NCBI GenBank assembly: GCA_964016885.1
Contig: OZ024740.1
Location: forward strand, 74,090,001 to 74,154,000
Source: Eledone cirrhosa
Taxonomy: Eukaryota
Direction of reading: 5' to 3'
DNA: 64,000 nucleotides
Made by a program: the position numbers and the translations under genes. Shown here one piece after another: positions 1,052-55,811 of this stretch (positions within the stretch are counted from its first letter, which is position 1; each line of letters starts with the position of its first letter). The notes beneath the pieces are model-generated. The model was not told the DNA's origin. It did no database searches and saw only the letters and a list, made by a program, of their open reading frames with translations.

Positions 1052-2174
1052 AGATCAAAAGATGGTTAAAGGAGTTCCATGTATTTTATTATGCGCATTT
1101 CAAAAACAAACATCATCATGCAATAATATTTGTGTTTGCATCAGATAAAACAGGAGAACATGATATGAAGGCTAAAAAACACTTGTGGATAGTGCAGTTT
1201 TAAATCAACATATGAAAAGTGGTTTTAGATTGATGTGTGATATTGGGAAAAATATTTTATTTAGAGAGGGGGTGGGTGGAAAGGATGAAAAAGGGGAGGA
1301 GATGAGAGGGAGAGATGGGTGATAGAGAGAAAGAGATAGTTTTTATAACTGAGAGGAGATATATTGTTTTACATAGAGAGGTTGAAAACCGTTGGAAGAT
1401 AATGTATAAATTAAAAAAATTTGAAAATTAACGAAAGGAGGATATGTGCGAGGAAAAAGTATTTTATTTAGGGGGGTGGGTGCAAAGGATGAAAAAAAGG
1501 GGGAGGAGGTGAAGGTGGAGAGGGAGAGATGGGTGATAGAGAGAAAGAGATAGTTTTTATAACTGAGAGAAAGATATATTGTTTTACATAGAGAGAGGTT
1601 GAGAACCGTTGGAAGATAATGTATAAATTAAAGGAATTTGAAAATTAACGAAGGGAATTTATGTATGAAGATAGAGAGAAGAAATAATAATTGTGGATGA
1701 ATATTCTAACGTCAAAAAAGGGTATGTTGATAAGTATTGTGGCAATTTCAAAATTAACGAAGAGAAAAATTATTAAGGTTTGTGTGTAGAAGGATTTGAG
1801 AAAAATAATGTGAAGTTAAAGTTTGTATATTGGAGGAATTGATAATATATGCGAATAAAGAGTTAATATGTATTAAGAATGAGTTCGTTGATGGGGAGAA
1901 AAAAATAATAAATTAAGGATGAAATTGAGATTAAAAAGATTTATGATAGAGAGAAAAAAAATAATGATTGCGGATGAATATTCTAACGTAAAAAAACAGA
2001 TGTATATGTTATGAAGGATTTTACAAGGTGAAGATAGAATGAGGGTAATGAGTAAACAAGTATTATAGAGTGTATAATGCCCTTTAAAGTATGGTAGGAA
2101 GATGGGTATATTTTAAAGAGGTGTATGTATATGTGCCTTTGAGAAAAGATTCTAAATTGATAAAGAATTGAATA

Positions 2175-3090: not shown

Positions 3091-4420
3091 TCTTTTAAAG
3101 CTCGTCTCTATAATCATCATTCATCTTTCAAATACAAACTTAAAAGAACCAACACTGCTCTCTCAGAACTCATATGGTCCTTAAAAGACAAAAACATTAA
3201 ATATACCATCTTTTGGAAGAAGGTTTCTTCTGCATCCTCATACTTGAACAGCTCTCTATCTAAAATCTGTAATCTCTGCCTAAATGAAAAATTTACCATT
3301 ATCTCTAACCTAGATTCTATAATAAATAGACGTACAGATTTGTTTTCTATCTGCCTGCATAAATTCCATAGAACTTTTCACAAAGTATACAGTTAATATT
3401 CAATTCTTTATCAATTTAGAATCTTTTCTCAAAGGCACATATACATACACCTCTTTAAAATATACCCATCTTCCTACCATACTTTAAAGGGCATTATACA
3501 CTCTATAATACTTGTTTACTCATTACCCTCATTCTATCTTCACCTTGTAAAATCCTTCATAACATATACATCTGTTTTTTTACGTTAGAATATTCATCCG
3601 CAATCATTATTTTTTTTCTCTCTATCATAAATCTTTTTAATCTCAATTTCATCCTTAATTTATTATTTTTTTCTCCCCATCAACGAACTCATTCTTAATA
3701 CATATTAACTCTTTATTCGCATATATTATCAATTCCTCCAATATACAAACTTTAACTTCACATTATTTTTCTCAAATCCTTCTACACACAAACCTTAATA
3801 ATTTTTCTCTTCGTTAATTTTGAAATTGCCACAATACTTATCAACATACCCTTTTTTTGACGTTAGAATATTCATCCACAATTATTATTTCTTCTCTCTA
3901 TTTTCATACATAAATTCCCTTCGTTAATTTTCAAATTCCTTTAATTTATACATTATCTTCCAACGGTTCTCAACCTCTCTCTATGTAAAACAATATATCT
4001 TTCTCTCAGTTATAAAAACTATCTCTTTCTCTCTATCACCCATCTCTCCCTCTCCACCTTCACCTCCTCCCCCTTTTTTTCATCCTTTGCACCCACCCAC
4101 CCTAAATAAAATACTTTTTCCTCGCACATATCCTCCTTTCGTTAATTTTCAAATTTTTTTAATTTATACATTATCTTCCAACGGTTTTCAACCTCTCTAT
4201 GTAAAACAATATATCTCCTCTCAGTTATAAAAACTATCTCTTTCTCTCTATCACCCATCTCTCCCTCTCATCTCCTCCCCTTTTTCATCCTTTCCACCCA
4301 CCCCCTCTCTAAATAAAATATTTTTCCCAATATCACACATCAATCTAAAACCACTTTTCATATGTTGATTTAAAACTGCACTATCCACAAGTGTTTTTTA
4401 GCCTTCATATCATGTTCTCC

Positions 4421-5630: not shown

Positions 5631-5902
5631 TATACATACATACACATATATATACACATATATATATATACATACATACACATATATATGCATATAAACC
5701 AACCAAACAGTGAGTGTGTTCTGTTATTATTTCTAGCAATATTATTACAACATGACGCTCCCCAAGTATAACAATATATGCATATATATTATATATATAT
5801 ATATACACATATATATACACACACACACATATATATATATGTTGACTAAGATTGAAACCCTGACCAGGATGACTGCCGTCTCTAACACCTAACACTAGAC
5901 CA

Positions 5903-5933
<31 letters not shown>

Positions 5934-5934
<1 letters not shown>

Positions 5935-7521
5935 TAGCGTAAAAGTTGGTGTCCATCAGGGCTCTGTTCTTAGCCCCCTACTATTTATTATTGCCCTTCA
6001 GGCTATAACAGAGGAGTTCAAGACCGGCTGCCCATGGGAACTCCTATACGCAGATGATCTAACGCTCATAGCTGAATCAATGACCGAGCTAGAGAAGAAA
6101 TTCCAAACATGGAAGCACGGCCTAGAATCAAAAGGCCTTAAAATTAACCTGGCTAAGACTAAAGTTCTAGTTTGTAGGAAAGAATATAAGGCGGCGGTCC
6201 CTTCCGGGAAATGGCCATGCTCAGTGTGTAGGAAAGGTGTAGGTAGAAACTCCATTTTATGTCCCAAATGCAAAGTATGGGTGCATAAAAGATGTAGTGG
6301 GATCACAGGTAAGCTAACTAAGAACATAGATTTTACATGTGGCCGGTGCTCTTGTGCAATAAGTAGCAGCAAGTGCCCACTAAATACTAGCTCTTTCAAT
6401 TGCGCAGAGGGTTCTATAGAAATAGTGGACAGCTTCCGTTACCTGGGTGACAAAATCACCAGTGGGGAGGGTGCTCTGAGGTGCTCTGAAAGTACATTAG
6501 CTAGAGTCAGAACTGGATGGAAAAAGTTCAGAGAGCTTATACCACTATTAGCCGCTAAAGGGTTCTCCCTAAAAATGAAAGGCAGGTTGTATGATGCCTG
6601 CATACGAATAGCAATGCTGCATGGCAGTGAGACCTGGGCATTGTGTGCAGAGGATATACGCAGACTAGAGAGGAACGAAGCTTGCATGCTCCGTTGGATG
6701 TGTAATAGTAATATACGTGAACGGCAAAGCATAAACGAACTAAGGAAAAAATTAGAAATAAGAGGGATCAGATGTTGTTTACTCGAGAGAAGGCTACGTT
6801 GGTATGGTCACGTGATGCGCATGAAAGACGACAGCTGTATAACAAAGTGCAGGGCAATAAAGATAGACGGTAGCCACGGAGTAGGCAGACCCAGAAAAAC
6901 CTGGGACGACTTGATAAATTCCGACCTCACACGCTTACACCTCTCCAAGACAATGTCACTGGACCAAGACCTTTGGCGGTACTCAGTAATAGAGAAGACC
7001 CGCCTTACCTAAATACAAAGTAAAACCTACTACATCAGCAGGCATCTCTAACAAAATACACCCCCGTCCCACTACCCCATCCACACCGCCCCTTTCAATG
7101 TAAAGTTATGTTGGTGCCACAACATCCAGGTCGAAACAAATGAGATCGTGTAGGTGTCACGACAAAAAAAAACACAGTACACGCTGTAATGTGGCCGTGT
7201 AGCCAACACGGTAAAAACCTCCCAGCCCCACACTGTAAATGTGGTTGGTGTTAGGAAGGGCATCCAGCTGTAGAAAACCCGCCAGACAGTCCTATGCGAG
7301 CAAGACAATCACTCTTGCCTCAAGTGGGAAAACCCCCGTCCAAACCCATGCAAGCGTGGAACACGGACGTTAAACGTTGATGATGATGATGATGATATAT
7401 ACCCGCCAGACAGTCCTATACGAGCAGGACAACAAATCTTGCCTCAAGTGGGAAAACTCCCGTCCAAACCCATGCAAGCGTGGAAGATGGACGTTAAGCG
7501 ATGATGATGATGATGATGATG
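5934..7521 (+). mobile_element. RTE LINE subfamily A, 5'-truncated, with a duplicated 3' tail
   Basis: GVHQGSVLSP, YADD, PHD-like insert, LRWYGHV; 3'UTR and (GAT)n tail; tail repeated at about 7401-7521. Confidence 0.92.
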
Positions 7522-14356: not shown

Positions 14357-17300
14357 CATCATCATCATCATCATCACCGTTTTACGTCCGTTCTTCCACG
14401 CTAGCATGGGTTAGACGGGTTGTCCTGTTGTGGGCAGTGTCTGGTCGGCTGACCATGCCTTGCTCATACAGGAACTGATCTGGCTTGATTTCTACAGCTG
14501 GATGCCCTTCCTAACACCAACCTCATTTACAGTGAGTGCTGGGTGCTTTTTCGTGGCGCCTACACGTCCACTTTACAGTGTGGGCTGGGTGCTTTTTTGC
14601 CGTGGCACCTCCACGACCACCTTGCGGTGGGGGGGGGGGGGCATATTGTTTATATGCTTCAGCATGTACCCATGGGAGGTCGGGTACCCTGTATTACTGC
14701 GTGACGCCAGAAGTCACGGTCGTGTGTCATTGACTTTGAGAGGTGTAGTTGGGTAAGGTCGGCTTTTATCACCTCATCCCAAGTCATCTTGGGTCTCCCC
14801 ACTCCGCGGTTTCCATCAACTTCTAGTGCTCTGCACCTTTTTATGCAGCTGTCATCCTTCATACGCATCACATGTCCATACCAGCGTAACCGCCTCTCCT
14901 GCACGCAGCATTTGATTCCTCTTATGCTCAGTCTCTCTCTCAATTCATTTATGCTTTTTCGTTCACGTATATTACTGTTACACATCCATCGGAGCATGCA
15001 GGCTTCGTTTCTCTCTAATCTACGTAAGTCTTCCACCTTCAGCGCCCAGGTCTCACTACCATGCAACATCGCTGTTCGGATACACGCATCATACAGTCTG
15101 CCTTTCATTCTGAGGGAGAAGCCTTTTGCAGCTAGCAGTGGTAGTAGTTCCCTAAACTTCTTCCATCCCGTTCTTACCCTAGTTATTGTACTTTCTGAGC
15201 ACCCACCTCCGTTGCTAATTCGGTCACCTAGGTAGCAGAAGCTGTCTACTGTTTCTACAGGGCCCTCCCAGAGATTGGTGGTACTTGTTTCCTGTGGCTG
15301 TTTGCTTGCTGTTTCAGCACAGCTGCTGCATGTGAATCCTACATTCTTAATTAAGCTTCCTGAGATCCCGCTACATCTCTTGTGTACCCATTGTTTGCAT
15401 TTGGGGCAAAGAATGGAGTTCCTACCTACACCTTTCCTACATACTGAGCAAGGCCATTTCCCTGAGGGGATCTGGGTTCTGTTTTCTCGTCTACTTATAA
15501 GGACCTTAGTCTTTGTCATGTTGACTTTGAGGCCCTTTCTCTCTAGTCCCTGCTTCCAGGTTTGGAATTTATTCTCTAGTTCTACCATAGATTCAGCTAT
15601 GAGTGCGAGGTCATCAGCATACAGGAGTTCCCATGGGCATCCGGTCTTAAACTCCTCCGTTATTGCCTGCAGGACTATGATGAACAGGAGAGGGCTAAGA
15701 ACAGAGCCCTGGTGGACCCCAACCTGTACGCTAAATTCCTCGTTATACTCATTGCCAATCCTAACTTTGCTGACTGCTCCCCTATACATGGCTTGTACCG
15801 CTTTCACAAGCCATTCATCTACTCCTAGTTTTCTAAGAGCCCACCAGATTACTGCACGTGGAACTCTGTCAAAGGCTTTCTCAAGGTCGACAAATGCCAA
15901 GTAGAGTGGCTTACTTTTAGCTAGGTACTTTTCCTGTAATTGCCTCACAAGGAAGAGCGCATCAGTGGTGCCTTTCCCTGGAACAAACCCAAATTGCATC
16001 TCGTCTATATTCACCCGGTCCCTAATCAGCTGTGCTATAACTCTTTCTGTTACTTTCATGACCTGGTCCATCAACTTTATACCTCTATAGTTTCCTCTAT
16101 CTAGTGCATCGCCTTTACCTTTGTAGCAGTTGACAATGATGCTACTGCACCAATCTTTTGGTATGGCCCCCTCTAGTATTACCTGGTTAACGATACGTGT
16201 GGTTATAGTGTGACCTATAGACCCAGATGCCTTCAGCATCTCGGCAGCTATACCCGATGGACCGGTTGCCTTCCCTATCTTCATATCTCTGATTGCCTTA
16301 CTTACTACGCTGCCGCTGACTTGTACTGCTGGTCCCTCTATAGGGTCTACGTGGGGTAGGGTCTCTTCTTCCCATGCATTCTCCTCATTTAGTAATCTAT
16401 CATAATGACTCTTCCATGCATCTTTCTTCTCAGCACTTGTGAGGGCAAGCTCACCTTTATCATTCCGGATACACTTCTCTCCAATGACATCACAACTATC
16501 TCTGACACACTGCCTCGCAATCTTGAATACCTCCTGTTTCTGGTCCTCACGTTGTAAAACATGCTTGAATTTTCTATCCTCTGCTTCCCTCCTAGCTAAG
16601 TATACTTGTCGCCTAGCTTCCCTCTTGGTCTCTATGTAATGTACCCTGCTCCCCCCGTTCTTCCATTCTTTCCATGCCTGTCTCTTGGCCTTGACTGCTT
16701 CATCTACCTTATTGTTCCACCACCAAGTCACTCTCCTCCTGCTTGAGGTCTTACTCCAGCCACAAACCTCATCCGTCGCCTCTAGTAAGTTATTTTTTAG
16801 GAACTCCCAGTTCTCTTCTACGTTAAATGTCTCTATCTGTTCTTCTTTACTGTCGTAGGCGTTGAGTAAAATATCTTTAAATCTGTTACTGGTTGAGGGG
16901 ACTTTCAGCTTCCAGATCTTTCTTCTCCAGGTTGGCCTCTGTTTCAGGGCTCGTCTAGTTCTGACCGTGAGGTCGCTGACAACTAAGCTATGTTGGGATG
17001 TACATTCCTCACTAGGGAAGGCTTTTGTGTTTACGACCGTCCATCTGTCACGTCCTCTGATGAGGATAAAATCTAACTGACTAGAGTGCTCCCCTGATCT
17101 ATAGGTGATCAGGTGGTTGTCGGGTTTTTTAAAGTTTGTGTTACATATCGACATGTCATTGGCGTCGCAGAATTCTAGAAGTCTGAATCCTTCCTCATTC
17201 CTTGTGCCAACTCCATGGCCTCCATGTACTCTATTGAAGCCGTCGCAGTGTTTACCTACGTGTCCGTTAAAATCTCCTGCAATGATTAGGAAGTCCTTGT

Positions 17301-17360
17301 CGTCTGTTAGAGCAGTAGTGTGTATTAGGGACTCGTAAAACCTATCCTTAAGTTCGTCAC
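14357..17360 (-). mobile_element. RTE LINE subfamily B, 5'-truncated inside the AP endonuclease, ORF uninterrupted
   Basis: ORF 14659..17388: AGDFNGH, SQH, NYRGI, FVDLEKAFD, YADD, PHD-like insert; (GAT)n tail. Confidence 0.95.
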
Positions 17361-17685
17361 TCGTAAAACCTATCCTTAAGTTCGTCACTCGTAAAACCTA
17401 TCCTTAAGTTCGTCACTCGTAAAACCTATCCTTAAGTTCGTCACTCGTAAAACCTATCCTTAAGTTCGTCACTCGTAAAACCTATCCTTAAGTTCGTCTC
17501 TCGTAAAACCTATCCTTAAGTTCGTCACTCGTAAAACCTATCCTTAAGTTCGTCACTCGTAAAACCTATCCTTAAGTTCGTCACTCGTAAAACCTATCCT
17601 TAAGTTCGTCACTCGTAAAACCTATCCTTAAGTTCGTCACTCGTAAAACCTATCCTTAAGTTCGTCTCTATCCTTAAGTTCGTCA
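17331..17685. repeat. 28-bp tandem array (~12 units) of tcgtaaaacctatccttaagttcgtcac
   Basis: The unit is the LINE's own terminal sequence, coding DELKDRFY. Confidence 0.95.
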
Positions 17686-26561: not shown

Positions 26562-28268
26562 TCATCATCATCATCATCATCACCGTTTTACGTCCGTTCT
26601 TCCACGCTAGCATGGGTTAGACGGGTTGTCCTGTTGTGGGCAGTGTCTGGTCGGCTGACCATGCCTTGCTCATACAGGAACTGATCTGGCTTGATTTCTA
26701 CAGCTGGATGCCCTTCCTAACACCAACCTCATTTACAGTGAGTGCTGGGTGCTTTTTCGTGGCGCCTACACGTCCACTTTACAGTGTGGGCTGGGTGCTT
26801 TTTTGCCGTGGCACCTCCACGACCACCTTGCGGTGGGGGGGGGGCATATTGTTTATATGCTTCAGCATGTACCCATGGGAGGTCGGGTACCCTGTATTAC
26901 TGCGTGACGCCAGAAGTCACGGTCGTGTGTCATTGACTTTGAGAGGTGTAGTTGGGTAAGGTCGGCTTTTATCACCTCATCCCAAGTCATCTTGGGTCTC
27001 CCCACTCCGCGGTTTCCATCAACTTCTAGTGCTCTGCACCTTTTTATGCAGCTGTCATCCTTCATACGCATCACATGTCCATACCAGCGTAACCGCCTCT
27101 CCTGGACGCAGCATTTGATTCCTCTTATGCTCAGTCTCTCTCTCAATTCATTTATGCTTTGTCGTTCACGTATATTACTGTTACACATCCATCGGAGCAT
27201 GCAGGCTTCGTTTCTCTCTAATCTACGTAAGTCTTCCACCTTCAGCGCCCAGGTCTCACTACCATGCAACATCGCTGTTCGGATACACGCATCATACAGT
27301 CTGCCTTTCATTCTGAGGGAGAAGCCTTTTGCAGCTAGCAGTGGTAGTAGTTCCCTAAACTTCTTCCATCCCGTTCTTACCCTAGTTATTGTACTTTCTG
27401 AGCACCCACCTCCGTTGCTAATTCGGTCACCTAGGTAGCAGAAGCTGTCTACTGTTTCTACAGGGCCCTCCCAGAGATTGGTGGTACTTGTTTCCTGTGG
27501 CTGTTTGCTTGCTGTTTCAGCACAGCTGCTGCATGTGAATCCTACATTCTTAATTAAGCTTCCTGAGATCCCGCTACATCTCTTGTGTACCCATTGTTTG
27601 CATTTGGGGCAAAGAATGGAGTTCCTACCTACACCTTTCCTACATACTGAGCAAGGCCATTTCCCTGAGGGGATCTGGGTTCTGTTTTCTCGTCTACTTA
27701 TAAGGACCTTAGTCTTTGTCATGTTGACTTTGAGGCCCTTTCTCTCTAGTCCCTGCTTCCAGGTTTGGAATTTATTCTCTAGTTCTACCATAGATTCAGC
27801 TATGAGTGCGAGGTCATCAGCATACAGGAGTTCCCATGGGCATCCGGTCTTAAACTCCTCCGTTATTGCCTGCAGGACTATGATGAACAGGAGAGGGCTA
27901 AGAACAGAGCCCTGGTGGACCCCAACCTGTACGCTAAATTCCTCGCTATACTCATTGCCAATCCTAACTTTGCTGACTGCTCCCCTATACATGGCTTGTA
28001 CCGCTTTCACAAGCCATTCATCTACTCCTAGTTTTCTAAGAGCCCACCAGATTACTGCACGTGGAACTCTGTCAAAGGCTTTCTCAAGGTCGACAAATGC
28101 CAAGTAGAGTGGCTTACTTTTAGCTAGGTACTTTTCCTGTAATTGCCTCACAAGGAAGAGCGCATCAGTGGTGCCTTTCCCTGGAACAAACCCAAATTGC
28201 ATCTCGTCTATATTCACCCGGTCCCTAATCAGCTGTGCTATAACTCTTTCTGTTACTTTCATGACCTG
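26562..28268 (-). mobile_element. RTE subfamily B, 5'-truncated
   Basis: ORF 26862..28262 nearly identical to the C-terminal half of 14659..17388. Confidence 0.95.
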
Positions 28269-29496
28269 ATTTTGGTGAGATTTGTACTTAGACTACAAGG
28301 AGCTGGAATAACTGCTACAAGGTATTTCTGTTACTTTCACTTTTATATATAAATATATACATACATACATACATTTACGTATATATATATAGCTATGCAT
28401 TTATACATTTGTATATATACATGCAGTTATACATTTGTATATATACATGCATTTATATTTAAGTGTGTAAGGATGTTGACATGATTATTTATGGGGTTTT
28501 TTTTTGGTACTGAGAAAATTCTGTCTACAGATTTTATTACCTAGGGAGATTAAATACCACAGCTCTGGCTGAAAGCTGACCAGGTTCTCAACCTCATCAA
28601 ATACTAACGCAGGCCTGTGTGTGTGTATGTGTGTATGTATGTATGTATGTATGTATGTATGTATGTATGTACGTATGCATGTGTGTGTGTATGTTCGTAT
28701 ATATGTATATGTATACACCCACACCTTTCATCACCATTGCTTCTTTTTGTTGTCATTTCTGTTGAAGTTGTTCTTGTAACTGTTGTCAAAGTTGACGTCG
28801 TTATGTTCATTTTCTTTGATTTCTTTTGGGGTTTTTTTTATCTCCCTAGGGAATTCGTTGACAAGCTTCTTTTATTTATTTTCTTCGTTTTCTTCATTCA
28901 AATGCACTGGCTGTCTAAGAGACGTACAAATATGACTTATAAAACTTACCAAACTAAAGGGGCTTCCAGTGCCTCCCAAACCTTCAAACGCCCCCCTAAC
29001 GCCCCCTTCCTCCAAAACGGGGGGAGGGCATATGACCCCCGTTGAGAACCTTTGATCTGCAAAATCAGGCTTATGATCATTGTCATGGTTATTACAACCA
29101 CCACCACCTATATTTTACATCCACCTTTCATGCAGGGATGAGCTGGGTGGATCGTTATAGTTAGTCAGTACTTATTTAGAGTTATTCTCTTACATGGGAG
29201 GATGATGTCTTATGTGTATGTTACCTTTTGTATGCATAATTTCTATGGTTAAATGTTCTTCCTAACACCAACCATGATTAAATACCCTGAATTAATAGAC
29301 AAAACAAGTTAGCAAGATATTATCATAATAATTCAACATCAACATCATTAGAGAATTGGACGAAATACCTTGTAGCAGTTATTCCAGCTCCTTGTAGTCT
29401 AAGTACAAATCTCACCAAAATCAACTTTTTATCATTCCTGAGTCAATAAAGTATTAACCTAGAATGGTGGGCTGGCAGAATCATTAGAACCTTAAA

Positions 29497-40095: not shown

Positions 40096-41607
40096 GGTGA
40101 GCTTGCCCTCACAAGTGCTGAGAAGAAAGATGCATGGAAGAGTCATTATGATAGATTACTAAATGAGGAGAATGCATGGAAGAAGAGACCCTACCCCACG
40201 TAGACCCTATAGAGGGACCAGCAGTACAAGTCAGCGGCAGCGTAGTAAGTAAGGCAATCAGAGATATGAAGATAGGGAAGGCAACCGGTCCATCGGGTAT
40301 AGCTGCCGAGATGCTGAAGGCATCTGGGTCTGTAGGTCACACTATAACCACACGTATCGTTAACCAGGTAATACTAGAGGGGGCCATACCAAAAGATTGG
40401 TGCAGTAGCATCATTGTCAACTGCTACAAAGGTAAAGGCGATGCACTAGATAGAGGAAACTATAGAGGTATAAAGTTGATGGACCAGGTCATGAAAGTAA
40501 CAGAAAGAGTTATAGCACAGCTGATTAGGGACCGGGTGAATATAGACGAGATGCAATTTGGGTTTGTACCAGGGAAAGGCACCACTGATGCCCTCTTCCT
40601 TGTGAGGCAATTACAGGAAAAGTACCTAGCTAAAAGTAAGCCACTCTACTTGGCATTTGTCGACCTTGAGAAAGCCTTTGACAGAGTTCCACGTGCAGTA
40701 ATCTGGTGGGCTCTTAGAAAACTAGGAGTAGATGAATGGCTTGTGAAAGCGGTACAAGCCATGTATAGGGGAGCAGTCAGCAAAGTTAGGATTGGCAATG
40801 AGTATAGCGAGGAATTTAGCGTACAGGTTGGGGTCCACCAGGGCTCTGTTCTTAGCCCTCTCCTGTTCATCATAGTCCTGCAGGCAATAACGGAGGAGTT
40901 TAAGACCGGATGCCCATGGGAACTCCTGTATGCTGATGACCTCGCACTCATAGCTGAATCTATGGTAGAACTAGAGAATAAATTCCAAACCTGGAAGCAG
41001 GGACTAGAGAGAAGGGGCCTCAAAGTCAACATGACAAAGACTAAGGTCCTTATAAGTAGACGAGAAAACAGAACCCAGATCCCCTCAGGGAAATGGCCTT
41101 GCTCAGTATGTAGGAAAGGTGTAGGTAGGAACTCCATTCTTTGCCCCAAATGCAAACAATGGGTACACAAGAGATGTAGCGGGATCTCAGGAAGCTTAAT
41201 TAAGAATGTAGGATTCACATGCAGCAGCTGTGCTGAAACAGCAAGCAAACAGCCACAGGAAACAAGTACCACCAATCTCTGGGAGGGCCCTGTAGAAACA
41301 GTAGACAGCTTCTGCTACCTAGGTGACCGAATTAGCAACGGAGGTGGGTGCTCAGAAAGTACAATAACTAGGGTAAGAACGGGATGGAAGAAGTTTAGGG
41401 AACTACTACCACTGCTAGCTGCAAAAGGCTTCTCCCTCAGAATGAAAGGCAGACTGTATGATGCGTGTATCCAAACAGCGATGTTGCATGGTAGTGAGAC
41501 CTGGGCGCTGAAGGTGGAAGACTTACGTAGATTAGAGAGAAACGAAGCCTGCATGCTCCGATGGATGTGTGTAATATACGTGAACGACAAAGCATAAATG
41601 AATTGAG
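40096..41607 (+). mobile_element. RTE subfamily B, 5'-truncated, running into the gap
   Basis: ORF 40176..41597; short indels near 40178 and 41570. Confidence 0.93.
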
Positions 41608-41807
41608 NNNNNNNNNNNNNNNNNNNNNNNNNNNNNNNNNNNNNNNNNNNNNNNNNNNNNNNNNNNNNNNNNNNNNNNNNNNNNNNNNNNNNNNNNNNNN
41701 NNNNNNNNNNNNNNNNNNNNNNNNNNNNNNNNNNNNNNNNNNNNNNNNNNNNNNNNNNNNNNNNNNNNNNNNNNNNNNNNNNNNNNNNNNNNNNNNNNNN
41801 NNNNNNN
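41608..41807. other. Assembly gap (200 N)
   Basis: Run of N. Confidence 0.99.
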
Positions 41808-44800
41808 GGTCGGAGTTTATCAGCTCATCCCATGTTTTTCTAGGTCTGCCTATTCCGTGGCTACCGTCTATCTTTATTGCCCTGCACTTTGTAATAGAGC
41901 TATCGACTTTCATGCGCATCACGTGTCCATACCAACGCAGCCTTCTCTCGAGTAAACAACATCTGATCCCTCTTATCTCTAATTTTTTCCTTAGTTCGTT
42001 TATGCTTTGCCGTTCACGTATATTACTGTTACACATCCAGCGGAGCATGCAAGCTTCGTTCCTCTCTAGTCTGCGTATATCCTCTGCACACAATGCCCAG
42101 GTCTCACTACCATGCAACATTGCTGTTCGTATGCAGGCATCGTACAACCTGCCTTTCATTTTTAGGGAGAACTCTTTAGCAGCTAATAGTGGTATAAGCT
42201 CTCTGAACTTTTTCCAACCAGTTCTGACTCTAGCTACAGTACTTTCAGAGCACCCTCCCCCACTGCTGATTTTATCGCCCAGGTAACGGAAGCTGTCCAC
42301 TATTTCTATAGAACCCTCTGCGCAATTGAAAGAGCTAGTATTTTGTGGGCACTTGCTGCTACTTATTGCACCAGAACATCGGCCACATGTAAAGTCTATG
42401 TTCTTAGTTAGCTTACCTGTGATCCCACTACATCTTTTATGCACCCATACTTTGCATTTAGGACATAAGATGGAGTTTCTACCTACGCCTTTCCTACATA
42501 CCGAGCACGACCATTTCCCAGAAGGGACCGCCGCCTTGTTTTCTTTCCTACAAACTAGAACTTTGGTCTTAGCCAGGTTAATTTTAAGTCCTTTTGACTC
42601 TAGGCCGTGCTTCCATGTTTGGAATTTCTTCTCTAGCTCGGCCATTGATTCCGCTATGAGTGTCAGGTCGTCTGCGTATAGGAGTTCCCATGGGCAGCCT
42701 GTCTTGAACTCCTCTGTTATAGCCTGAAGGGCAATAATAAATAGTAGGGGGCTGAGAACAGAGCCCTGATGGACGCCAACTTTTACGCTAAACTCTTCAC
42801 TATATTCGTTGTTAATTCTAACCTTGCTGACTGTTTCTTTATACATGGCTTGTATAGCCCTCACAAGCCATTCGTCAACGCCTAGTTTTCTAAGAGCCCA
42901 CCAGATAATGGAGCGGGGGACTCTGTCGAAGGCTTTCTCCAGGTCGACAAAAGCTAAGTAGAGGGGTTTACCTTTAGCTAGGTACTTCTCCTGTAGTTGT
43001 CGTACTATGAAAAGAGCGTCTGTGGTGCTTTTGCCTGACACAAACCCGAACTGCATTTCATCTAGATCAATTCTCTCTCTGATTAGTTGCGCTATTACTT
43101 TTTCCGTGACCTTCATGACCTGGTCGATTAATTTAATGCCTCTATAGTTACTCCTATCTAGGGCGTCTCCTTTACCCTTATAACAGTTAACGATGATGCT
43201 GCTATGCCAGTCCTTCGGAACAACCCCATTCTGTACGACTTGGTTAACTATGCGGGTGACCATGGTGTGTCCCACCGTGCCAGATGCCTTCAGCATCTCA
43301 GCAACTATTTCCGAAGGCCCAGCCGCCTTACCAGTCTTCATATCCTTGATTGCCTTACTTATTATACTCCCCTCGACTAACACTGCTGGTCCCTCTATCG
43401 GGTCGATATGGGGGAGACTGTCTTTCTCCCATTTATTCTCCTCATTTAGTAGCCTTTCATAGTGACACTTCCAAGCTACCTTCTTATCAGTGTCGGTGAT
43501 GGCAAGTATGCCATCATCGTTAAGTACACACTTCTCCCCGACAATATCACGGTTTTCCTTGACGCATTGCCTGGCAATCCTGAACACCTCACGTTTTTGG
43601 TCATCGCGTTGTAGAACATGCTTGAACTTTCTTTCCTCCGCTTCCCTTCTTGCTAAGTACACTTCTCTCCTAGCTTCCCTCCTGGCCACTTGATAGTCTA
43701 CTCTACTTCCCCCATCCCGCCATACTTTCCAAGCCTGCTTTTTGGCCTTAATTGACCCCTCCACCCTATTGTTCCACCACCATGTTACTCTCCTCCTGCC
43801 TACAGGCCTGCTCCAGCCACAGACCTCGTCTGTCGCCAACAGCAGGTTTGCTTTCAGAAATTTCCACTGTCCCTCTATATTGTCCGATTCTAGATGCTCT
43901 TCCTTACTGTCGAAAGCATCAAGTAATATGCTTTGAAATTTATTTCTGGCTGTGGGGTCCTTTAGCTTCCATATTTTTCTCCTGAGGATAGTCCTCTTCT
44001 GCTGTCGGGTACGTCTCGTCCTGACTATGAGGTCGCTAATTATCAGTCTATGTTGGGAGGTGCATTCTTCATGGGGGAGGGATTTAGTGTTTACAACAGA
44101 CACTCTGTCACGTCTTCTGGTAAGGATATAATCTACCTGGCTTGTGTGTTCCCCGGATCTATAGGTAATCAGGTGATTGTCACGTTTTTTGAAGTTAGTG
44201 TTACAGATAGTTAGGTTATTTGCATCACAGTATTCCAGGATTCTGGAGCCTTCCTCATTTCTAGTACCAAACCCATAGCCTCCATGGATTTCGTCGTAGC
44301 CGTCACAATGTTGTCCAACGTGACCATTTAGGTCGCCTGCAATAATTATATAGTCACTGTCAGATATTTGGGAGGTAGTTAGCAACAGTGTCTCATAGAA
44401 TCTGTCTTTTATAGTGCCGGGCAGTCCGGATTGGGGTGCGTACGCAGATATTACTGTCACCGTAGTTCTATTGAGGCCAAGTCTTATTTTAATTATTCTG
44501 TCGTTCACTCTATTTACGTCTATTATCTTATCTGCCCACTTTTCTGCTACCATGATTCCTACTCCACCCAGCCCATCGTCGTTTCCCACCCAGAAAAGCT
44601 TATAACATCGTTTTTTACCCTCAATGAATCTAGCAGACCCACCCCTCCACCTGGTCTCTTGAATACAACAAACATCGACCTCCTTACGTTCAAGCATTTC
44701 TACAACCTCGTTAGCGCGACCCTTTAGGGTGCCTACATTTATGGTACCAACTCTGAAGTTTTGGGTTGCGTTTGGAGGGTGGGGGTGGTGGGGGGCGGGA

Positions 44801-45035
44801 GGAGATAGGGTTATGTTAGCCATCCGCGGACGAAACAAAGAGGAGTGCTCGCATTCTCGTCCACGAGGTGAATTTGACTTTAACTTTGGCATTTTCGCTC
44901 TGGGCGTCCAGATTTTTCTCTCCCTTCCACTCTCCAGGATTCCGCAGTCCGTCCGTCCATCCATCCATCCATCATATATCGAAGGCAACCGGGCAAGCGA
45001 TAGTATAGGCCTCTGGCTTATGATTTGGTCCGCGT
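41808..45035 (-). mobile_element. Near full-length RTE LINE subfamily A with intact APE-RT ORF; 3' end lost in the gap
   Basis: GTINVGTL, CIQETRW, SAYAPQ, AGDLNGH, SQH, YADD, C4HC3 insert; probable start MANIT at 44823. Confidence 0.95.
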
Positions 45036-45057
45036 AATAATAATAATAATGGTGATG

Positions 45058-45742
<685 letters not shown>

Positions 45743-47799: not shown

Positions 47800-48560
47800 T
47801 CTGTCTTTTGCACTGCAAAGCCATTTGAACTGAAAGAAGTCTCAAACTTCTTAGTCATCTGAAACATCATGGTGAAGATGCCCGCATCTTCGTGAATGAA
47901 AAGAAGTTCATGATAGACAATGTTGCAAATCATCAAAACTCACAAGTGATAGTGTATGACCCTTCCCAAGTTCCTTCAGCTCTGCATAGCAAGAATCTGG
48001 TTTCCATTATGATCTTTGGAGCTGTTATAAGTGATGGGAAATTGATGCCCCCTCATTTTATTGAAGCTTGTCTTAAAATCAATAAAGCAGAGTAACTCAA
48101 AATCTTAGAAGTTTTGTTCCCTAGGAAGCATTATGATGCAAGTCGAGTCATGTTTGTGCCCACTTATTCTTCAAAAATAGTGCAAGAATTTTTGTTTGTC
48201 CCTAAAGATATCTAGCCCTCTAGCTCGCCATATTTGAATCCATGTGATATTTGGCTATGGGGCACAGTTGAAGCAATATCCAAAGCAACTTCTCACAACT
48301 GTGTGTCTTCAATGAAGGCTTTGATCAAACAAGCATTCAATAAAATGAAAAAGGAAGACATGGTTAAGGCATGCACATTATTTTGTAAATGGATTGAACT
48401 GGTACAGAAATCAAATGGCCATCACATTGAACTGAAGTAAGTGCTAAACACTCCACAATAAATGGGCATAAACATAAAATTTACAGTGCTTTATTTTTCC
48501 GAGTTATACCAATTATAATAAAGATATTTAAATGGTCCCAATTTACCTGTTATACCCTCT
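47800..48560 (+). pseudogene. Decayed Tc1/mariner (maT-like) transposase, 3' half
   Basis: NEKKF..IMIFGAVISDGKLMPPHFI..PSSSPYLNPCDIWLWG..NGHHIE. Confidence 0.8.
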
Positions 48561-48589
48561 GTGTGTGTGTGTGTATATACATATATACA

Positions 48590-51500
48590 CGACAAATTCA
48601 CCTCATGCTGCCGGACGAAAGGGCAAGCCCCCCCCCCCCTCTTTGTTTCGGCCGCAGATGGCCAACATAACCCCAAACTCATCCCCCTCACCCCTCCCTG
48701 CGCCCCATCCTCCAAACACAATCCAAAACTTCAGAGTTGGTACCATGAACGTAGGCACCTTAAAAGGCCGCTCTAACGAGGTTGTAGAATTGCTTGAACG
48801 TAAGGAGGTCGATGTTTGTTGTATTCAAGAGACCAGGTGGAGGGGTGGGTCTGCTAGATTCATTGTGGGTAAAAAACGATGCTATAAGCTTTTCTGGGTG
48901 GGAAATGACAATGGGCTGGATGGAGTAGGAATCATGGTAGCAGAAAAGTGGGCAGATAAGATAATAGACGTAAATAGAGTGAACGACAGAATAATTAAAA
49001 TAAGAACTACTGTGACAGTAATATCTGCATGCGCGCCCCAATCCGGACTGCCTGGCGTTATAAAAGACAGATTCTATGAGACACTGATGCTCACTCCCTC
49101 CCAAATAACCGACAGTGACTATATAATTATTGCTGGCGACCTAAATGGCCACGTTGGACAACATTCTGACGGCTATGATGGAATCCACGGAGGCTATGGG
49201 TTTGGTACTAGAAACGAGGAAGGCTCCAGAATCCTGGAATTCTGTGATGCAAATAACCTAACTATCTGTAACACTAACTTCAAAAAACGAGACAATCACT
49301 TGATCACCTACAGATCAGGGGAACATACCAGCCAGGTAGATTATATCCTTACCAGAAGACGTGACAGAGTGTCTGTTGTAAACACTAAATCCCTCCCCCA
49401 TGAAGAATGCACCTCCCAACATAGACTGATAATTAGCGACCTCATAGTCAGGACGAGACATACTAGACAGCAGAAGAGGACTATTTCTCAGGAGAAAAAT
49501 ATGGAAGCTAAAGGATCCCACAGCCAGAAATAAACTTCAAAGCATATTACTTGATGCTTTCGACAGTAAGGAAGAGCATTTAGAGTCGTACAATGTAGAG
49601 GAACAGTGGGAATTCCTGAAAGCAAACCTGCTGATGGCGGCAGACGAAGTCTGTGGCTGGAGCAAGCCTGTAGGCAGGAGGAGAGTAACATGGTGGTGGA
49701 ACAGTAAGGTGGAGGGGTCAATCAAGGCCAAAAAGCAGGCTTGGAAAGCATGGCGGGATGGGGGAAGTAGAGAAGACTATCAAGTGGCCAGGAGGGAAGC
49801 TAGGAGACAAGTGTACTTCGCAAGAAGGGAAGCAGAGGAAAGAAAGTTCAAGCATGTTCTACAACGCGAGGACCAAAAACGTGAGGTGTTCAGGATTGCT
49901 AGGCAATGTGTCAAGGAAAACCGTGATATTGTCGGGGAGAAGTGTGTACTTAACGATGATGGCATACTTGCCATCAATGACGCTGATAAGAAGGTAGCTT
50001 GGAAGTGTCACTACGAAAGGCTACTAAATGAGGAGAATAAATGGGAGAAAGACAGTCTCCCCCACATCGACCCAATAGAGGGACCAGCAGTGTTAGTCGA
50101 AGGTAGTATAATAAGTAAGGCAATCAAAGATATGAAGACGGGTAAGGCGGCTGGGCCTTCGGAAATAGTTGCTGAGATGCTGAAAGCCTCTGGAACGGTG
50201 GGACACACCATGGTCACCCGGATAGTAAACCAAGTCATACAGAATGGGGTTGTTCCAAAGGACTAGCGTAGCAGCATCATCGTTAACTGTTACAAGGGTA
50301 AAGGAGACGCCCTAGATAGGAGTAACTATAGAGGCATTAAATTAATCGACCAGGTCATGAAGGTCACGGAAAAAGTAATAGCGCAATTAATCAGAGAGAG
50401 AATTGATCTAGATGAAATGCAGTTCGGGTTTGTGTCAGGCAAAAGTACCACAGACGCTCTTTTCATTGTACGACAACTACAAGAGAAGTACCTAGCTAAA
50501 AGTAAACCCCTATACTTAGCTTTTGTCGACCTGGAGAAAGCCTTCGACAGAGTCCCCCGTTCCATTATCTGGTGGGCTCTTAGAAAACTAGGTGTTGACG
50601 AATGGCTTGTGAGAGCTATACAAGCCATGTATAAAGAAACAGTCAGCAAGGTTAGAATTAACAACGAATATAGCAAAGAGTTTAGCGTAAAAGTTGGTGT
50701 CCATCAGGGCTCTGTTCTTAGCCCCCTACTATTTATTATTGCCCTTCAGGCTATAACAGAGGAGTTCAAGACCGGCTGCCCATGGGAACTCCTATACGCA
50801 GATTATCTAACGCTCATAGCTGAATCAATGGCCGAGCTAGAGAAGAAATTCCAAACATGGAAGCACGGCCTAGAATCAAAAGGCCTTAAAATTAACCTGG
50901 CTAAGACTAAAGTTCTAGTTTGTAGGAAAGAAAATAAGGTGCCGGTCCCTTCCGGGAAATGGCCATGCTCAGTGTGTAGGAAAGGCGTAGGTAGAAACTC
51001 CATTTTATGTCCCAAATGCAAAGTATGGGTGCATAAAAGATGTAGTGGGATCACAGGTAAGCTAACTAAGAACATAGATTTTACATGTGGCCGGTGCTCT
51101 GGTGAAATAAGTAGCAGCAAGTGCCCACAAAATACTAGCCCTTTCAATTGCGCAGAGGGTTCTATAGAAATAGTGGACAGCTTCCGTTACCTGGGTGACA
51201 AAATCAGCAGTGGGGGAGGGTGCTCTGAAAGTACAGTAGCTAGAGTCAGAACTGGATGGAAAAAGTTCAGAGAGCTTATACCACTATTAGCCGCTAAAGG
51301 GTTCTCCCTAAAAATGAAAGGCAGGTTGTATGATGCCTGCATACGAACAGCAATGTTGCATGGCAGTGAGACCTGGGCATTGTGTGCAGAGGATATACGC
51401 AGACTAGAGAGGAACGAAGCTTGCATGCTCCGCTGGATGTGTAATAGTAATATACGTGAACGGCAAAGCATAAACGAACTAAGGAAAAAATTAGAAATAA

Positions 51501-51823
51501 GAGGGATCAGATGTTGTTTACTCGAGAGAAGGCTACGTTGGTATGGTCACGTGATGCGCATGAAAGACGACAGCTGTATAACAAAGTGCAGGGCAATAAA
51601 GATAGACGGTAGCCATGGCGTAGACAGACCCAGAAAAACCTGGGACGATCTGATAAATTCCGACCTCACACACTTACACCTCTCCAAGACAATGTCACTG
51701 GACCGAGACCTTTGGCGGTACTCAGTAATAGAGAAGACCCGCCTTACCTAAATACAAAGTAAAACCTACTACAGTCAGTAGGCATCTCTAACAAAATACA
51801 AGCGTGGAACATGGACGTTAAAC

Positions 51824-52562: not shown

Positions 52563-53090
52563 TGTAAAACATTTAAATATAAATTAATATATATGATGAA
52601 ACACAAATACCAACATATCTGCATTTATATTGTAAAAGAAATTTAGTTAGCTAGAATGAAATAAACTAATTATAATATTACAGCCTGCCTATATCGATTT
52701 AAAATAATAAATCAACAAAGACAAACAGTATTGCCAAATGGTATTGCCAAATATTTTAAAAGACTTTTAAAATATAACAGTCTTTTAAAATATTTAGAAG
52801 TGAAGCATATCAATTTGTTCGGGATGTTTACTGAAGAGAGCTGGACAAGATATCCTTACACTTATTTATCTTGAAACATATTTGGATTTTAAAGTTTAAA
52901 CTTATCTACGGAACAGGTTTGATTTTGAAATTTAAATGTGTCTAAACATCACGGCCATTTGGCAATACTGTTTGTCTTTGTTGATTTATTATTTTAAATC
53001 GACATAGGCAGGCTGTAATATTATAATTAGTATATTTCATTCTAGCTAACTAAATTTCTTTTACAATTTATATTTAAATGTTTTATATAA
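52563..53090. mobile_element. Small PLE/retrozyme-like unit: inverted ends around a hammerhead motif
   Basis: Arms about 52630-52741 and 52955-53066, extending outward. Confidence 0.65.
52820..52953 (+). ncRNA. Type I hammerhead motif with a long stem II region
   Basis: gatgttta-CTGAAGA-(~90 nt)-GAAA-tttaaatgtGTC-taaacatc; perfect 8-bp stem I, weak stem III. Confidence 0.65.
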
Positions 53091-53144: not shown

Positions 53145-53475
53145 GGAGGCACATGGCTTAGTGGTTAGAGCATTGGCCTTGCAATCGAACGGTTGTGAGT
53201 TCAATTCTCAGACCGGGTGATGTGTTGTTTCCTTGAGCAAGACAATTTATTTCACATTGCTCCAGTTTACTCAGCTGTAGAAATGAGATGATAGGGACTG
53301 GGGTCCATATCATTCCACTGCAAAGTGGTCGTGGAGGTGTCACGGCAAAAAAAAAGCACCCAGCACTCACTGTAAATGAGGTTGGTGTTATGAAGGGCAT
53401 CCAGCTGTAGAAATCAAGCCAGCATCAGTTCCCGTCTCACCCTTGCAAGCAGGGAAAAAGCGGACATAAAATGAA
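53145..53475 (+). mobile_element. tRNA-derived SINE with ccttgagcaag core and RTE-derived tail
   Basis: A-box tggcttagtgg, B-box gagttcaattc; tail shared with RTE 3'UTR. Confidence 0.88.
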
Positions 53476-53752
53476 ATATATATATATATCCTAAACGGAC
53501 ATATAGTAATATTGTTGTGGTCGTGTTTTCGTTGGCAATAGTCTGTTTACGACAGTACAGCGCGGCTCTACTTTATTTAACTGAGATAAAACTTATATGA
53601 GCATGAACAGTAGATCATTACGCATCTTTTGGCTTAAAAATCTAGAAATTTGGTCCATCGGGAAAAAGTTTATAATCAAAGTTTGCTGATAAATCGTGTG
53701 TTCAAGTGAGTGAGTAGTAAGCGTGACGCTAGGGGAGGTAATCCAGAAATGA

Positions 53753-53938
53753 CGACGTTTGGAAAAGTTTAATTACTGCATGAAAGAAATGATTCAAAAA
53801 TTGAACTTGCCCAATCTTCACAACATTGAAAATTGGTCAAAATTTGACAAATCTGACTTCAAATCAGATATGATTCATTTGAACAATGTTGGAAATCTTA
53901 AATTGACACAAATTTTTGCCAATGTTTTTGCCACCTGA
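53753..53938 (+). pseudogene. SGNH/GDSL hydrolase-like C-terminal fragment
   Basis: RRLEKFNYCMKEMIQKLNLPNLHNIENWSKFDKSDFKSDMIHLNNVGNLKLTQIFANVFAT*; DxxH-L-N-x-x-G motif; AATAAA about 40 nt downstream. Confidence 0.6.
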
Positions 53939-54118
53939 TCCTTGTTCTATGGCTGACTGACTAATTTTGTGACTTAATAAAATGTCATCATACTAGTAAT
54001 GCACAATGGGCATTTTTAAATTTAAATTTTATTAAATAGTTGTTGCTTGCATTGCCTTAAAATAGAAACAAGAATGTACACATACTTATTAAAAATACAT
54101 CATTATCAGTCAAATCAG

Positions 54119-54477
54119 TCAAATGTCACTAAAAGCCAGGTGGTCGATAACAACTTCTATAAGATTAGTTACATGCTCACACATTGGATCACCTCTCATC
54201 AATGGCATTGGGTGTCTGAGATAATCGTGGAGATAACTGATGAAGTCACAAATGAAGTGATGGTCTTCCAGTGTGAACAACTCCCTATATCCATTGATAT
54301 ATGTGATGGCTTCCGATTCATAGGTGCATTTTATGAGGAATTCCATGCATCCGATTTTCAGTGATTCAATGGGCATTTATCAGAGATGATAAGGTATTTG
54401 ACCACGTTTTACTTTGTAAGTAAATTGGAGAGAATCACTGCAGTCAAAGTCATTTCTTTGCATGGGTTTTTGTCCAT
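54119..54477 (-). pseudogene. BACK (BTB-associated)-like ORF, ~119 aa after repairing one stop and one frameshift
   Basis: ILSNLLTK*NVVKYLIISDK/MPIESLKIGCMEFLIK fits the L..EN....L..AD......LK..C..F pattern; ttttag lies just before the ATG. Confidence 0.55.
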
Positions 54478-54750
54478 TCTAAAAAGTTAAAATGATAAAG
54501 TATTACTACTATATAACTTACATCTATTGTTGTAACACCATTGAAATGCACAAGTTTCACCAATTCACTATTATGCCCTAATCATCTCAAATGCATTCAT
54601 GATTTACTAGCTTTGTCATTAAGCCAGTTGCCTCAACTAGATTGCAATTATACTCAAAAGAACTTTAAAATGTCAATCACTTGTCAGTAATTCACTATGA
54701 TCATTTAATTATTAGATAGTTGTTGCTTGCATTGCCTTAAAAAATAGTAG

Positions 54751-55811
54751 ACCAGATATAAAAATGCGTACAGCAAAAAAAAGTAATATTGTTGGAATAT
54801 AAACCTTTAAAAATACAGGACAAGAAACTAAGATAAAACTTTAAAAGAATAGGACAAGAAACTAAGATAAAACTTTAAAGAATTGGACAAGAAATAAAAA
54901 AATTTTACAATAATATTAGTGGCAAAATTTTTTTATTCGTTTCCTGTGCTATGCCCCAGTATCTTCTTGATTAGTGCATAATAATTGTCATGCTCTCATT
55001 GTACGTTGCCCCTGAGCAGTTGGTTCTGGTTGGGTTGGTTGGTTGAGCAGTTCTGCTCCGTCAGAATGACCATTGCAAGAAGAATTGGCCGATGCAGCTG
55101 CAGGTCTCCTCCAAGAATGCACTTCTGGTCCCGCAACACCAGACGAAGATGGAGAAGACGACCGGGACAAGATGTCGACTCTGACCACCGACTACGGCAC
55201 CTCCCTCAACCACCGGTCCTCCCTCCCTCTGTCCCGTCATCCCTCCAGTCCTCCTGCTCCCTCTTCCTGTACCAGAAAGCTGTGGCACGCATTCATCTGG
55301 ACTGCCGGACTTGAGCTCAAGGACAAGATGCAAGGAGAAGATGGACGGGTTGGTCAAGATCAAGGATGAGCGGGACGACAAGACTGTCTGCTGCTGCTCA
55401 AGATCTGTGCTCATGTGCCCATGGGTCCATTCACATTATGCATGACACATGAGGCGTGTCACCGAATGATGAAATAGGGGTATGGTTATGGCCCAATTGG
55501 TGTTCAAACCAGGATCAAATGATCCCCCCGGTCTGACGACGACCTCTGAATGTGGAACCCAGAGCCTATGAATGTGGAACTCGATTTTTTACCAATAAAA
55601 ATTTTGCCACTAATATTATTGTAAAATTTTTTATTTCTTGTCCAATTCTTTAAAGTTTTATCTTAGTTTCTTGTCCTATTCTTTTAAAGTTTTATCTTAG
55701 TTTCTTGTCCTATTCTTTTAAAGTTTTACTTTAGTTTCTTGTCCTGTACTTTTAAAGGTTTATATTCCAACAATATTACTTTTTTTTGCTGTACGCATTT
55801 TTCTATCTGGT
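54751..55811. repeat. Inverted repeats (about 54751-54930 and 55597-55811) with internal ~34-bp tandem units, flanking a GC-rich core
   Basis: accagatataaaaatgcgtacagc..gtggcaaaatttt is mirrored on the right, where there is one extra unit. Confidence 0.9.

What the first reader, a model, noticed from the sequence alone, without database searches (positions are those of the whole stretch)
53753..55811. Compact decayed cassette: SGNH-like, BACK-like and orphan ORFs with a hammerhead-like core and inverted ends
Seen: within 2 kb there is an SGNH-like C-terminus (DMIHLNNVG) followed by AATAAA, a convergent BACK-like ORF with only two lesions, a ~28-nt motif (tagttgttgcttgcattgccttaaaa) at about 54037 and 54717, and a GC-rich coding-like stretch followed by CTGACGA-c-gacc at about 55533, inside ~180-210 bp inverted repeats. 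Known: giant Penelope-related Terminons of rotifers carry GDSL esterase ORFs and hammerheads; SGNH domains also occur in LINE ORF1s; BTB/BACK genes occur in large DNA viruses. Inference: this may be a fragment of a multi-gene cargo-carrying retroelement or an endogenous virus. It is the least explained region of the window.
Basis: partly seen in the sequence, partly recalled or inferred. Interest (0 to 1): 0.75.

Follow-up and report, generated by a model that had tools for sequence, protein, structure and literature searches.

The report
Gutted Helitron with fold-back right end
This 2.3-kb stretch is one of several hundred near-identical, internally deleted copies of a rolling-circle jumping gene (Helitron) whose last kilobase is a long inverted repeat that likely tells the enzyme where to stop copying; it is not a retroelement or a virus, and it has no hammerhead ribozyme.

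Summary
Window 53489-55810 is one copy of a young dispersed repeat (copies 95-98% alike; 849 exact hits of its terminal 20-mer, many in inverted pairs). It begins TC, ends CTGG and sits in A|T without duplication. Copies with the same ends reach 12.6 kb and encode a Helitron transposase (DUF6570, Rep, Pif1, C-terminal UCH; no endonuclease found), so this is a non-autonomous HLE2-type Helitron that lost about 10 kb. The SGNH piece is the last exon of a five-exon NADAR-SGNH cargo gene. The 'BACK-like' ORF is open in most copies, but BACK homology is inconclusive. The hammerhead is not supported. The inverted repeats are an inverted internal copy of the element's own 3' end. Two related families keep this fold-back with unrelated spacers, and keep the 28-nt motif beside it. 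The spacer is inverted in 2 of 88 copies. Most likely the long stem replaces the usual short 3' stop hairpin (inferred); self-priming is a rival. This scan already described the family, the fold-back and the NADAR-SGNH gene on other DNA of this genome. Verdict: new variant of a known kind.

The parts
53489..55810 (+). Whole non-autonomous Helitron (HLE2-type) copy, 2322 bp, A|TCC...CTGG|T, in the AT tail of a SINE-like repeat
   Evidence: Copy alignments stop at these bases; 28 of 28 two-ended copies have A before and T after, and an empty-site paralogue of this flank exists
53489..53517 (+). 5' end: TC, 10-bp hairpin (right arm lost in this copy), 13-bp subterminal repeat at 53505-53517
   Evidence: Intact in most other copies; 361 exact hits of hairpin half plus repeat; stem changes compensatory, loop kept in families B and C
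53518..53755 (+). Remaining 5' non-coding part; deletion junction at 53755/53756, about 10 kb of the 12.6-kb form missing
53756..53938 (+). Last 60 codons (with DMIH) of the final exon of a five-exon NADAR-SGNH cargo gene
   Evidence: Whole exon in longer copies: Lipase_GDSL_3 E=0.003, below cut-off; GDS, PGA, GSND, DMIH in order in a spliced model; NADAR pieces upstream; 335-aa model open in 1 of 4 copies modelled
53976..53981 (+). AATAAA after the cargo gene, predicted poly(A) signal
   Evidence: sequence; use not tested
54029..54062 (+). Second copy of the 34-nt motif, end of an older ~90-nt duplication that brackets the convergent ORF
54119..54477 (-). 119-codon ORF of unknown family (ATG to stop), frameshifted near 54377 in this copy; BACK likeness inconclusive
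   Evidence: 122-codon stop-to-stop frame is the longest in 52 of 60 copies; no homologue; marginal BACK score; AlphaFold2 mean pLDDT 36, all helix
54709..54742 (+).
54752..54932 (+). Internal inverted copy of the element's 3' end (three 34-bp units here, four in the terminal arm)
   Evidence: present in 27 of 28 family-A two-ended copies not picked by a fold-back query
54933..55596 (+). GC-rich spacer (53% GC), no recognised protein; unrelated to the spacers of families B and C; inverted in 2 of 88 copies
55533..55539 (+). CTGACGA heptamer, not a hammerhead
55597..55810 (+). Terminal arm: 34-bp tandem units, 13-bp subterminal repeat at 55768-55780, CTGG 3' end; no strong short hairpin in the last 60 nt

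Best explanation
This is a non-autonomous, internally deleted copy of a Helitron of the HLE2 branch, likely moved in trans by the RepHel-UCH transposase of longer relatives, with a kilobase fold-back at its 3' end that likely acts as the stop signal. Shown: repeat family, ends, A|T target without duplication, transposase domains in copies with the same ends, cargo remnants, fold-back kept in three families. Inferred from Helraiser (PMC4778049): Rep nicks at the 5' TC, the helicase peels off one strand, a stem makes it pause and the strand is cut after CTRR, closed to a circle and inserted at AT. Inferred here: the displaced strand pairs its last ~200 bases with the internal inverted copy, so the stem ends on the final base and stands in for the missing short 3' hairpin. 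The SGNH remnant and the 119-codon ORF are passengers; the short copies do not need them whole. I put the identity at about 0.95 and the terminator role at about 0.55.
For: Copy number and ends. Target: 28 of 28 A|T; 14 of 28 had a junction-spanning empty-site hit, 5 of them with an informative (not purely AT-microsatellite) junction, all without duplication; a family-B copy sits at an A|T inside an intron of a family-A cargo gene. Transposase: Helitron_like_N 1.6e-26, DUF6570 6e-17, PIF1 1.5e-26, UCH 2.7e-9 and 7.9e-13; one 12.6-kb copy carries both ends, transposase, cargo and fold-back. DUF6570 marks HLE2 and UCH is enriched in HLE2 subgroups c, d (PMC11417382 section 23). Fold-back: families B (80-89% aa in Rep/Hel) and C (about 45-70% aa) have it; outer arms 72/74 to 75/75 within a family, 66-67/69 A to B, at best 51/69 A to C; spacers share nothing by blastn or tblastx. 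Last 60 nt fold weakly (-2.3 to -4.5 kcal/mol) against about -10 for the 5' hairpins; the fold-back folds at -265.
Against: No experiment shows what the fold-back does. 1 of 28 family-A copies lacks the internal arm and 1 has lost the spacer, yet both have clean ends (the loss may post-date insertion). 22 of those 28 are the same 2.3-kb subfamily, so they are not independent. No fully open transposase was found: all family-A copies read had breaks, and both family-B copies share a stop; I read only part of the 57 Rep candidates. No tree was built, so the subgroup is not tested.
Confidence: 0.8

Rival explanations
1. Same element, but the fold-back serves to prime the second strand: the excised strand's CTRR 3' end pairs with the internal copy and is extended back along the element, as in parvoviral hairpin ends.
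For: The stem ends exactly on the last base. One copy (L036) is extended by 82 nt of inverted upstream sequence, the predicted product. The spacer is inverted in 2 of 88 copies, which share no derived spacer variant. The motif next to the priming point is kept in three families.
Against: 86 of 88 copies have one spacer orientation, not the even split that hairpin transfer would give (recalled for AAV). Arms often differ in unit number within a copy. Mirrored substitutions: 7 mirrored pairs among 107 substitutions in 52 copies (1 of 5000 permutations as high), but 6 of the 7 lie at an A-run/T-run border, so this is inconclusive. Ordinary recombination or repair between inverted repeats explains rare flips and one extension.
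Confidence: 0.15
2. The fold-back is an inherited accident (an old inverted self-insertion or template switch) kept in step by gene conversion, without a role in transposition.
For: Composite and multi-ended Helitrons arise by self-insertion (PMC5148889 passages). One copy without the arm exists.
Against: It persists in three families whose transposases are down to about 45-70% identical while the spacer was replaced outright, and in derivatives that lost almost everything else.
Confidence: 0.25
3. Fragment of a Terminon/Penelope-like cargo retroelement or of an endogenous DNA virus.
For: An SGNH-like gene is present; BACK likeness is weakly above shuffles.
Against: Helitron ends, A|T target, Rep-helicase in copies with the same ends, no hammerhead, no RT or viral gene seen in the ORFs scanned.
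Confidence: 0.02
4. 54752-55810 is an independent MITE with 200-bp terminal inverted repeats that landed next to the cassette.
For: It looks like one when read alone.
Against: In 30 of 30 loci picked by this unit alone, element sequence continues to the left, and the left junction has no target duplication and is fixed across copies and families.
Confidence: 0.02

Closest known systems
UCH-bearing HLE2 elements, subgroups c and d (HELIANO, PMC11417382; sections 23, 24 and passages read)
   Same: DUF6570, Rep, Pif1, UCH domain, short subterminal inverted repeats (13 bp)
   Different: Here TC...CTRR ends in A|T instead of the T|T given for HLE2; hairpin at the 5' end; kilobase 3' fold-back. The ends of subgroup c/d elements are not given in the text I read; supplements not seen.
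proto-Helentron of Phytophthora infestans and HLE2-reverse/FoHeli3-5 (PMC4067079 section 11 and passages; PMC11417382 section 24; PMC5148889 passages)
   Same: HLE2-type transposase without endonuclease, CTAG-type 3' end and A|T target (proto-Helentron), 5' stem-loop upstream of the left repeat, multi-gene cargo
   Different: 5' TC rather than TT; UCH fused; hairpin directly abuts the left repeat; no long 3' fold-back in the passages read
HINE/DINE-1 non-autonomous Helentron derivatives (PMC4067079 passages)
   Same: Deletion derivatives with 13-bp subTIRs, internal tandem repeats, far more copies than the autonomous partner
   Different: A|T not TT target; partner lacks the AP endonuclease; stem-loop at the other end
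texim SGNH genes on fish Helitrons (PMC4021074, parts 1-2 of 5 read)
   Same: Spliced SGNH hydrolase gene beside a Helitron transposase
   Different: Here fused to a NADAR domain, five compact exons, downstream of the transposase; homology to texim not tested
Helraiser, canonical HLE1 (PMC4778049 passages)
   Same: 5' TC, 3' CTRR, AT target, no duplication
   Different: Helraiser has a short 3' terminator hairpin; this family has none of comparable strength and has HLE2 protein markers

Membership tests
Helitron-like elements (all) | Rep (HUH) plus Pif1 helicase transposase in the autonomous partner | tested here: met
Helitron-like elements (all) | Insertion without target-site duplication | tested here: met
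   empty sites
HLE2 | DUF6570 upstream of Rep | tested here: met
   E 6e-17 and 3e-16
HLE2 | Short (12-16 nt) subterminal inverted repeats | tested here: met
   13 bp at 53505-53517 and 55768-55780
HLE2 (canonical) | [quoted passage not shown] | tested here: not met
   strong hairpin is 5'; target is A|T
HLE2 subgroups c/d | UCH domain | tested here: met
HLE2 subgroups c/d | Placement in that clade of the RepHel tree | not tested
Helentron (strict sense) | AP endonuclease fused to the helicase | tested here: not met
   C-terminus is UCH, no Exo_endo_phos hit
HLE1 (canonical Helitron) | 5' TC, 3' CTRR, A|T target | tested here: met
HLE1 (canonical Helitron) | Short hairpin 10-12 nt from the 3' end; no DUF6570 | tested here: not met
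Terminon / Penelope-like (features recalled) | Reverse transcriptase within the element | tested here: not met
   none in the long ORFs scanned from full-length copies
Terminon / Penelope-like (features recalled) | Hammerhead ribozyme | tested here: not met
SGNH/GDSL hydrolase | Blocks with S, G, N and D-x-x-H in order | tested here: met
   GDS, PGA, GSND, DMIH in the spliced model of one copy; block names recalled and per PMC4021074
SGNH/GDSL hydrolase | Profile score above the curated cut-off | tested here: inconclusive
   last exon alone 18 bits against cut-off 27; the spliced protein could not be submitted
BACK domain | Significant match to a BACK profile | tested here: inconclusive
   no Pfam BACK hit; 4.1 bits, 36 of 2000 shuffles as high, right register over 36 aa only
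NADAR | Match to PF08719 | tested here: inconclusive
   three consecutive exons match profile 4-67, 81-116, 118-162 in order, E 0.003, 0.019, 0.13, each below cut-off

The most novel reading that the evidence does not exclude
A clade of animal Helitrons has swapped the short 3' terminator for a self-complementary kilobase end that primes second-strand synthesis on the excised strand, a parvovirus-like step inside a transposon; rare flipped loops and a 3' end extended by its own complement would be its footprints. One family also carries a NADAR-esterase that could remove ADP-ribose from its single-stranded DNA intermediate.
Probability: 0.15. Interest if true: 0.75.

Novelty: new variant of a known kind. 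Interest (0 to 1): 0.45.

Why it matters
How Helitrons of the HLE2 branch mark their 3' end, and how the single-stranded intermediate becomes double-stranded, are open questions; Helraiser's authors left the second as 'possibly' (PMC4778049). A young family with hundreds of copies, classic ends, no short terminator and a conserved long stem that ends on the last base gives a direct test of both. I found no description of such an end in my searches (listings and the passages named), but Repbase and the papers' supplements were not seen. The copy in this window is itself an ordinary dead passenger.

Tried and rejected
Hammerhead: Rfam, folding and core-motif checks negative. Pfam on 13 of 13 window ORF fragments: nothing. 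122-aa ORF: no hit among longer proteins, solved structures (one E=0.17 chance hit), 1.84 billion representatives, viral contigs; NCBIfam only an E=0.018 match far below cut-off; AlphaFold2 model too poor for a fold search, none run. PF24570 search of the genome rang nowhere, so it says nothing. SGNH last exon: no homologue at near or longer lengths and only chance solved-structure hits; the 14-residue viral match treated as chance. ESM Atlas gave no answer. Metagenome scan with the family-B Rep gave one 27-residue match, so the fold-back could not be checked in other species. No RNA holder listed; contigs of four runs only confirmed the majority alleles. Mirrored-variant test: the first version (16 against 2.4 expected) counted one copy twice and included alignment artefacts; the stricter version (35 of 88 dropped for incomplete arms, 1 as a duplicate) is inconclusive. 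A genome-wide count of 3'-extended copies could not be made (one search returned mostly ordinary internal arms). An assumed intron inside SGNH exon 4 was wrong (corrected in 77). MITE reading rejected.

Full report
Observation. CTGACGA at 55533 has no GAAA within 100 nt downstream, the heptamer pattern occurs 25 times in the window, Rfam lists no hammerhead among 38 matches at E<=10, and four folds are no better than shuffles. The convergent ORF scores 4.1 bits against a profile of 25 BACK domains from the same genome; 36 of 2000 shuffles reach that, and true members left out score 31-135. The alignment falls in the expected register over 36 residues, so a very diverged BACK is neither shown nor excluded.

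What the unit is. Both halves are high-copy: 645 and 812 first-look candidates, 40 scored each, 95-99% identical apart from the window's own copy. Alignments stop at 53489 and 55810. The terminal 20-mer has 849 exact hits, many of the 100 listed in inverted pairs about 1.05 kb apart, and the 5' signal 361, so there are several hundred copies. Spacers of 63 copies differ from their majority by 1.1%, a recent burst. In 28 of 28 distinct two-ended copies the element reads A|TCC...CTRG|T. Fourteen had an empty-site paralogue among my loci; the five with an informative junction show one AT and no duplication. The genome is a 3.0-Gb animal assembly; my impression that it is a cephalopod is recalled from its SINEs and untested.

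The partner. Following copies whose left part differs led to longer forms with the same ends, up to 12.6 kb. They encode DUF6570, Helitron Rep, Pif1 helicase and a C-terminal UCH protease domain, with no AP endonuclease. HELIANO names DUF6570 as the HLE2 marker and finds UCH enriched in subgroups c and d (PMC11417382 section 23). The window copy has lost about 10 kb, from the 5' non-coding part to the last exon of a cargo gene, and the right arm of its 5' hairpin. No fully open transposase was seen in the copies I read.

Cargo. The SGNH piece ends a five-exon gene with GT-AG introns. Exons 1-3 match NADAR in order (E 0.003, 0.019, 0.13) and exon 3 runs in frame into GDS; PGA, GSND and DMIH follow. 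One of four copies modelled is open for 335 aa, though with NMIH in place of DMIH; another copy lacking exon 1 is open through the SGNH part with all four motifs. SGNH genes on Helitrons are known from fish (PMC4021074, parts 1-2 read). The convergent 119-codon ORF is open in 52 of 60 copies and has no homologue in any search. Families B and C show neither gene by tblastn at E<=1e-3, so the cargo is dispensable.

The fold-back. The 'inverted ends' are an inverted internal copy of the element's own last ~200 bases. It is not a free MITE (30 of 30 loci continue left). It is kept in 27 of 28 family-A two-ended copies not selected on it (three rows pairing with a nested family-B end dropped; 22 are one subfamily). 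Family B and family C have the same layout. All three have a 10-bp 5' hairpin with the same loop and compensatory or wholly changed stems, and only weak structure in the last 60 nt. The spacer is inverted in 2 of 88 copies, and one copy is extended by the complement of its upstream sequence.

Mechanism. In Helraiser a 3' hairpin ends transposition, circles form, and AT is the target (PMC4778049 passages). This family has those ends but no comparable short hairpin, and a stem that closes on the last base. I therefore take the long stem as the likely terminator (about 0.55). Earlier notes of this scan say the same; I had first favoured self-priming (notebook) and moved toward the terminator after the flip count, the 3' folding and those notes. 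Self-priming (0.15) fits the extension and the flips but not their rarity; the mirrored-variant test is inconclusive. A neutral relic (0.25) fits the one armless copy but not conservation across three families.

Comparison and novelty. It works like a Helitron and meets the HLE2 protein and subterminal-repeat tests; it fails the strict Helentron test and the canonical HLE2 end test, and resembles proto-Helentron and HLE2-reverse in mixing features (PMC4067079 section 11, PMC11417382 section 24, PMC5148889 passages). Searches (listings, plus the passages named; PMC13085455 and PMC12273014 passages added nothing on this) showed no kilobase 3' fold-back and no NADAR on a Helitron; supplements and Repbase were not seen and may hold such ends. 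The scan's earlier notes on other DNA of this genome already describe the family, the fold-back and the NADAR-SGNH gene; they are not independent support. Verdict: new variant of a known kind, interest 0.45.

Noticed in passing
L177:2597-4023 and L178-L183 (long family-A copies): Five-exon NADAR-SGNH fusion gene with three 54-57 nt introns and one of ~215 nt; 335-aa model open in 1 of 4 copies modelled. NADAR is reported in Gypsy and Tx1 elements (PMC12477816 passages); family B spreads without it.
   Followed up: partly
L154:4147-L155:5353 and L151:3758-L152:4929: Family B, 11.2-kb elements with a RepHel-UCH frame of about 2400 codons; both copies share one stop in the helicase region, and one has no other break.
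   Followed up: partly
L155:4665-5084: Family-B spacer holds a 140-codon Cys/His-rich ORF that looks like a PHD finger by eye; no Pfam or NCBIfam hit.
   Followed up: partly
L036:~270-410 (minus strand): 3' end extended by 82 nt of inverted upstream element sequence and then a perfect ~21-bp GC-rich hairpin.
   Followed up: partly
L131-L133: Two family-B 5' ends and a family-B 3' end nested in the NADAR intron of a family-A copy, at A|T.
   Followed up: partly
window 53752-53756: Several different deletion derivatives share this left breakpoint (to 53756, 54340, 54408, 54608), some at short microhomologies.
   Followed up: no
window 5873-7012, 14659-17397, 26862-28292, 40167-41597, 41437-45681, 48532-51751: Several LINE-like copies with RT followed directly by a PHD finger, some with an AP endonuclease upstream.
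   Followed up: no
window 52612-53084: Small element with 130-nt inverted arms 213 nt apart, MITE-like.
   Followed up: no
window 53146-53488: tRNA-headed SINE-like repeat (Rfam tRNA 26 bits) whose AT tail is the insertion site.
   Followed up: no
window 1246-1656 and 3916-4327: Two 217-bp tandem pairs that appear to be inverted copies of each other, with strong opposite GC skew.
   Followed up: no
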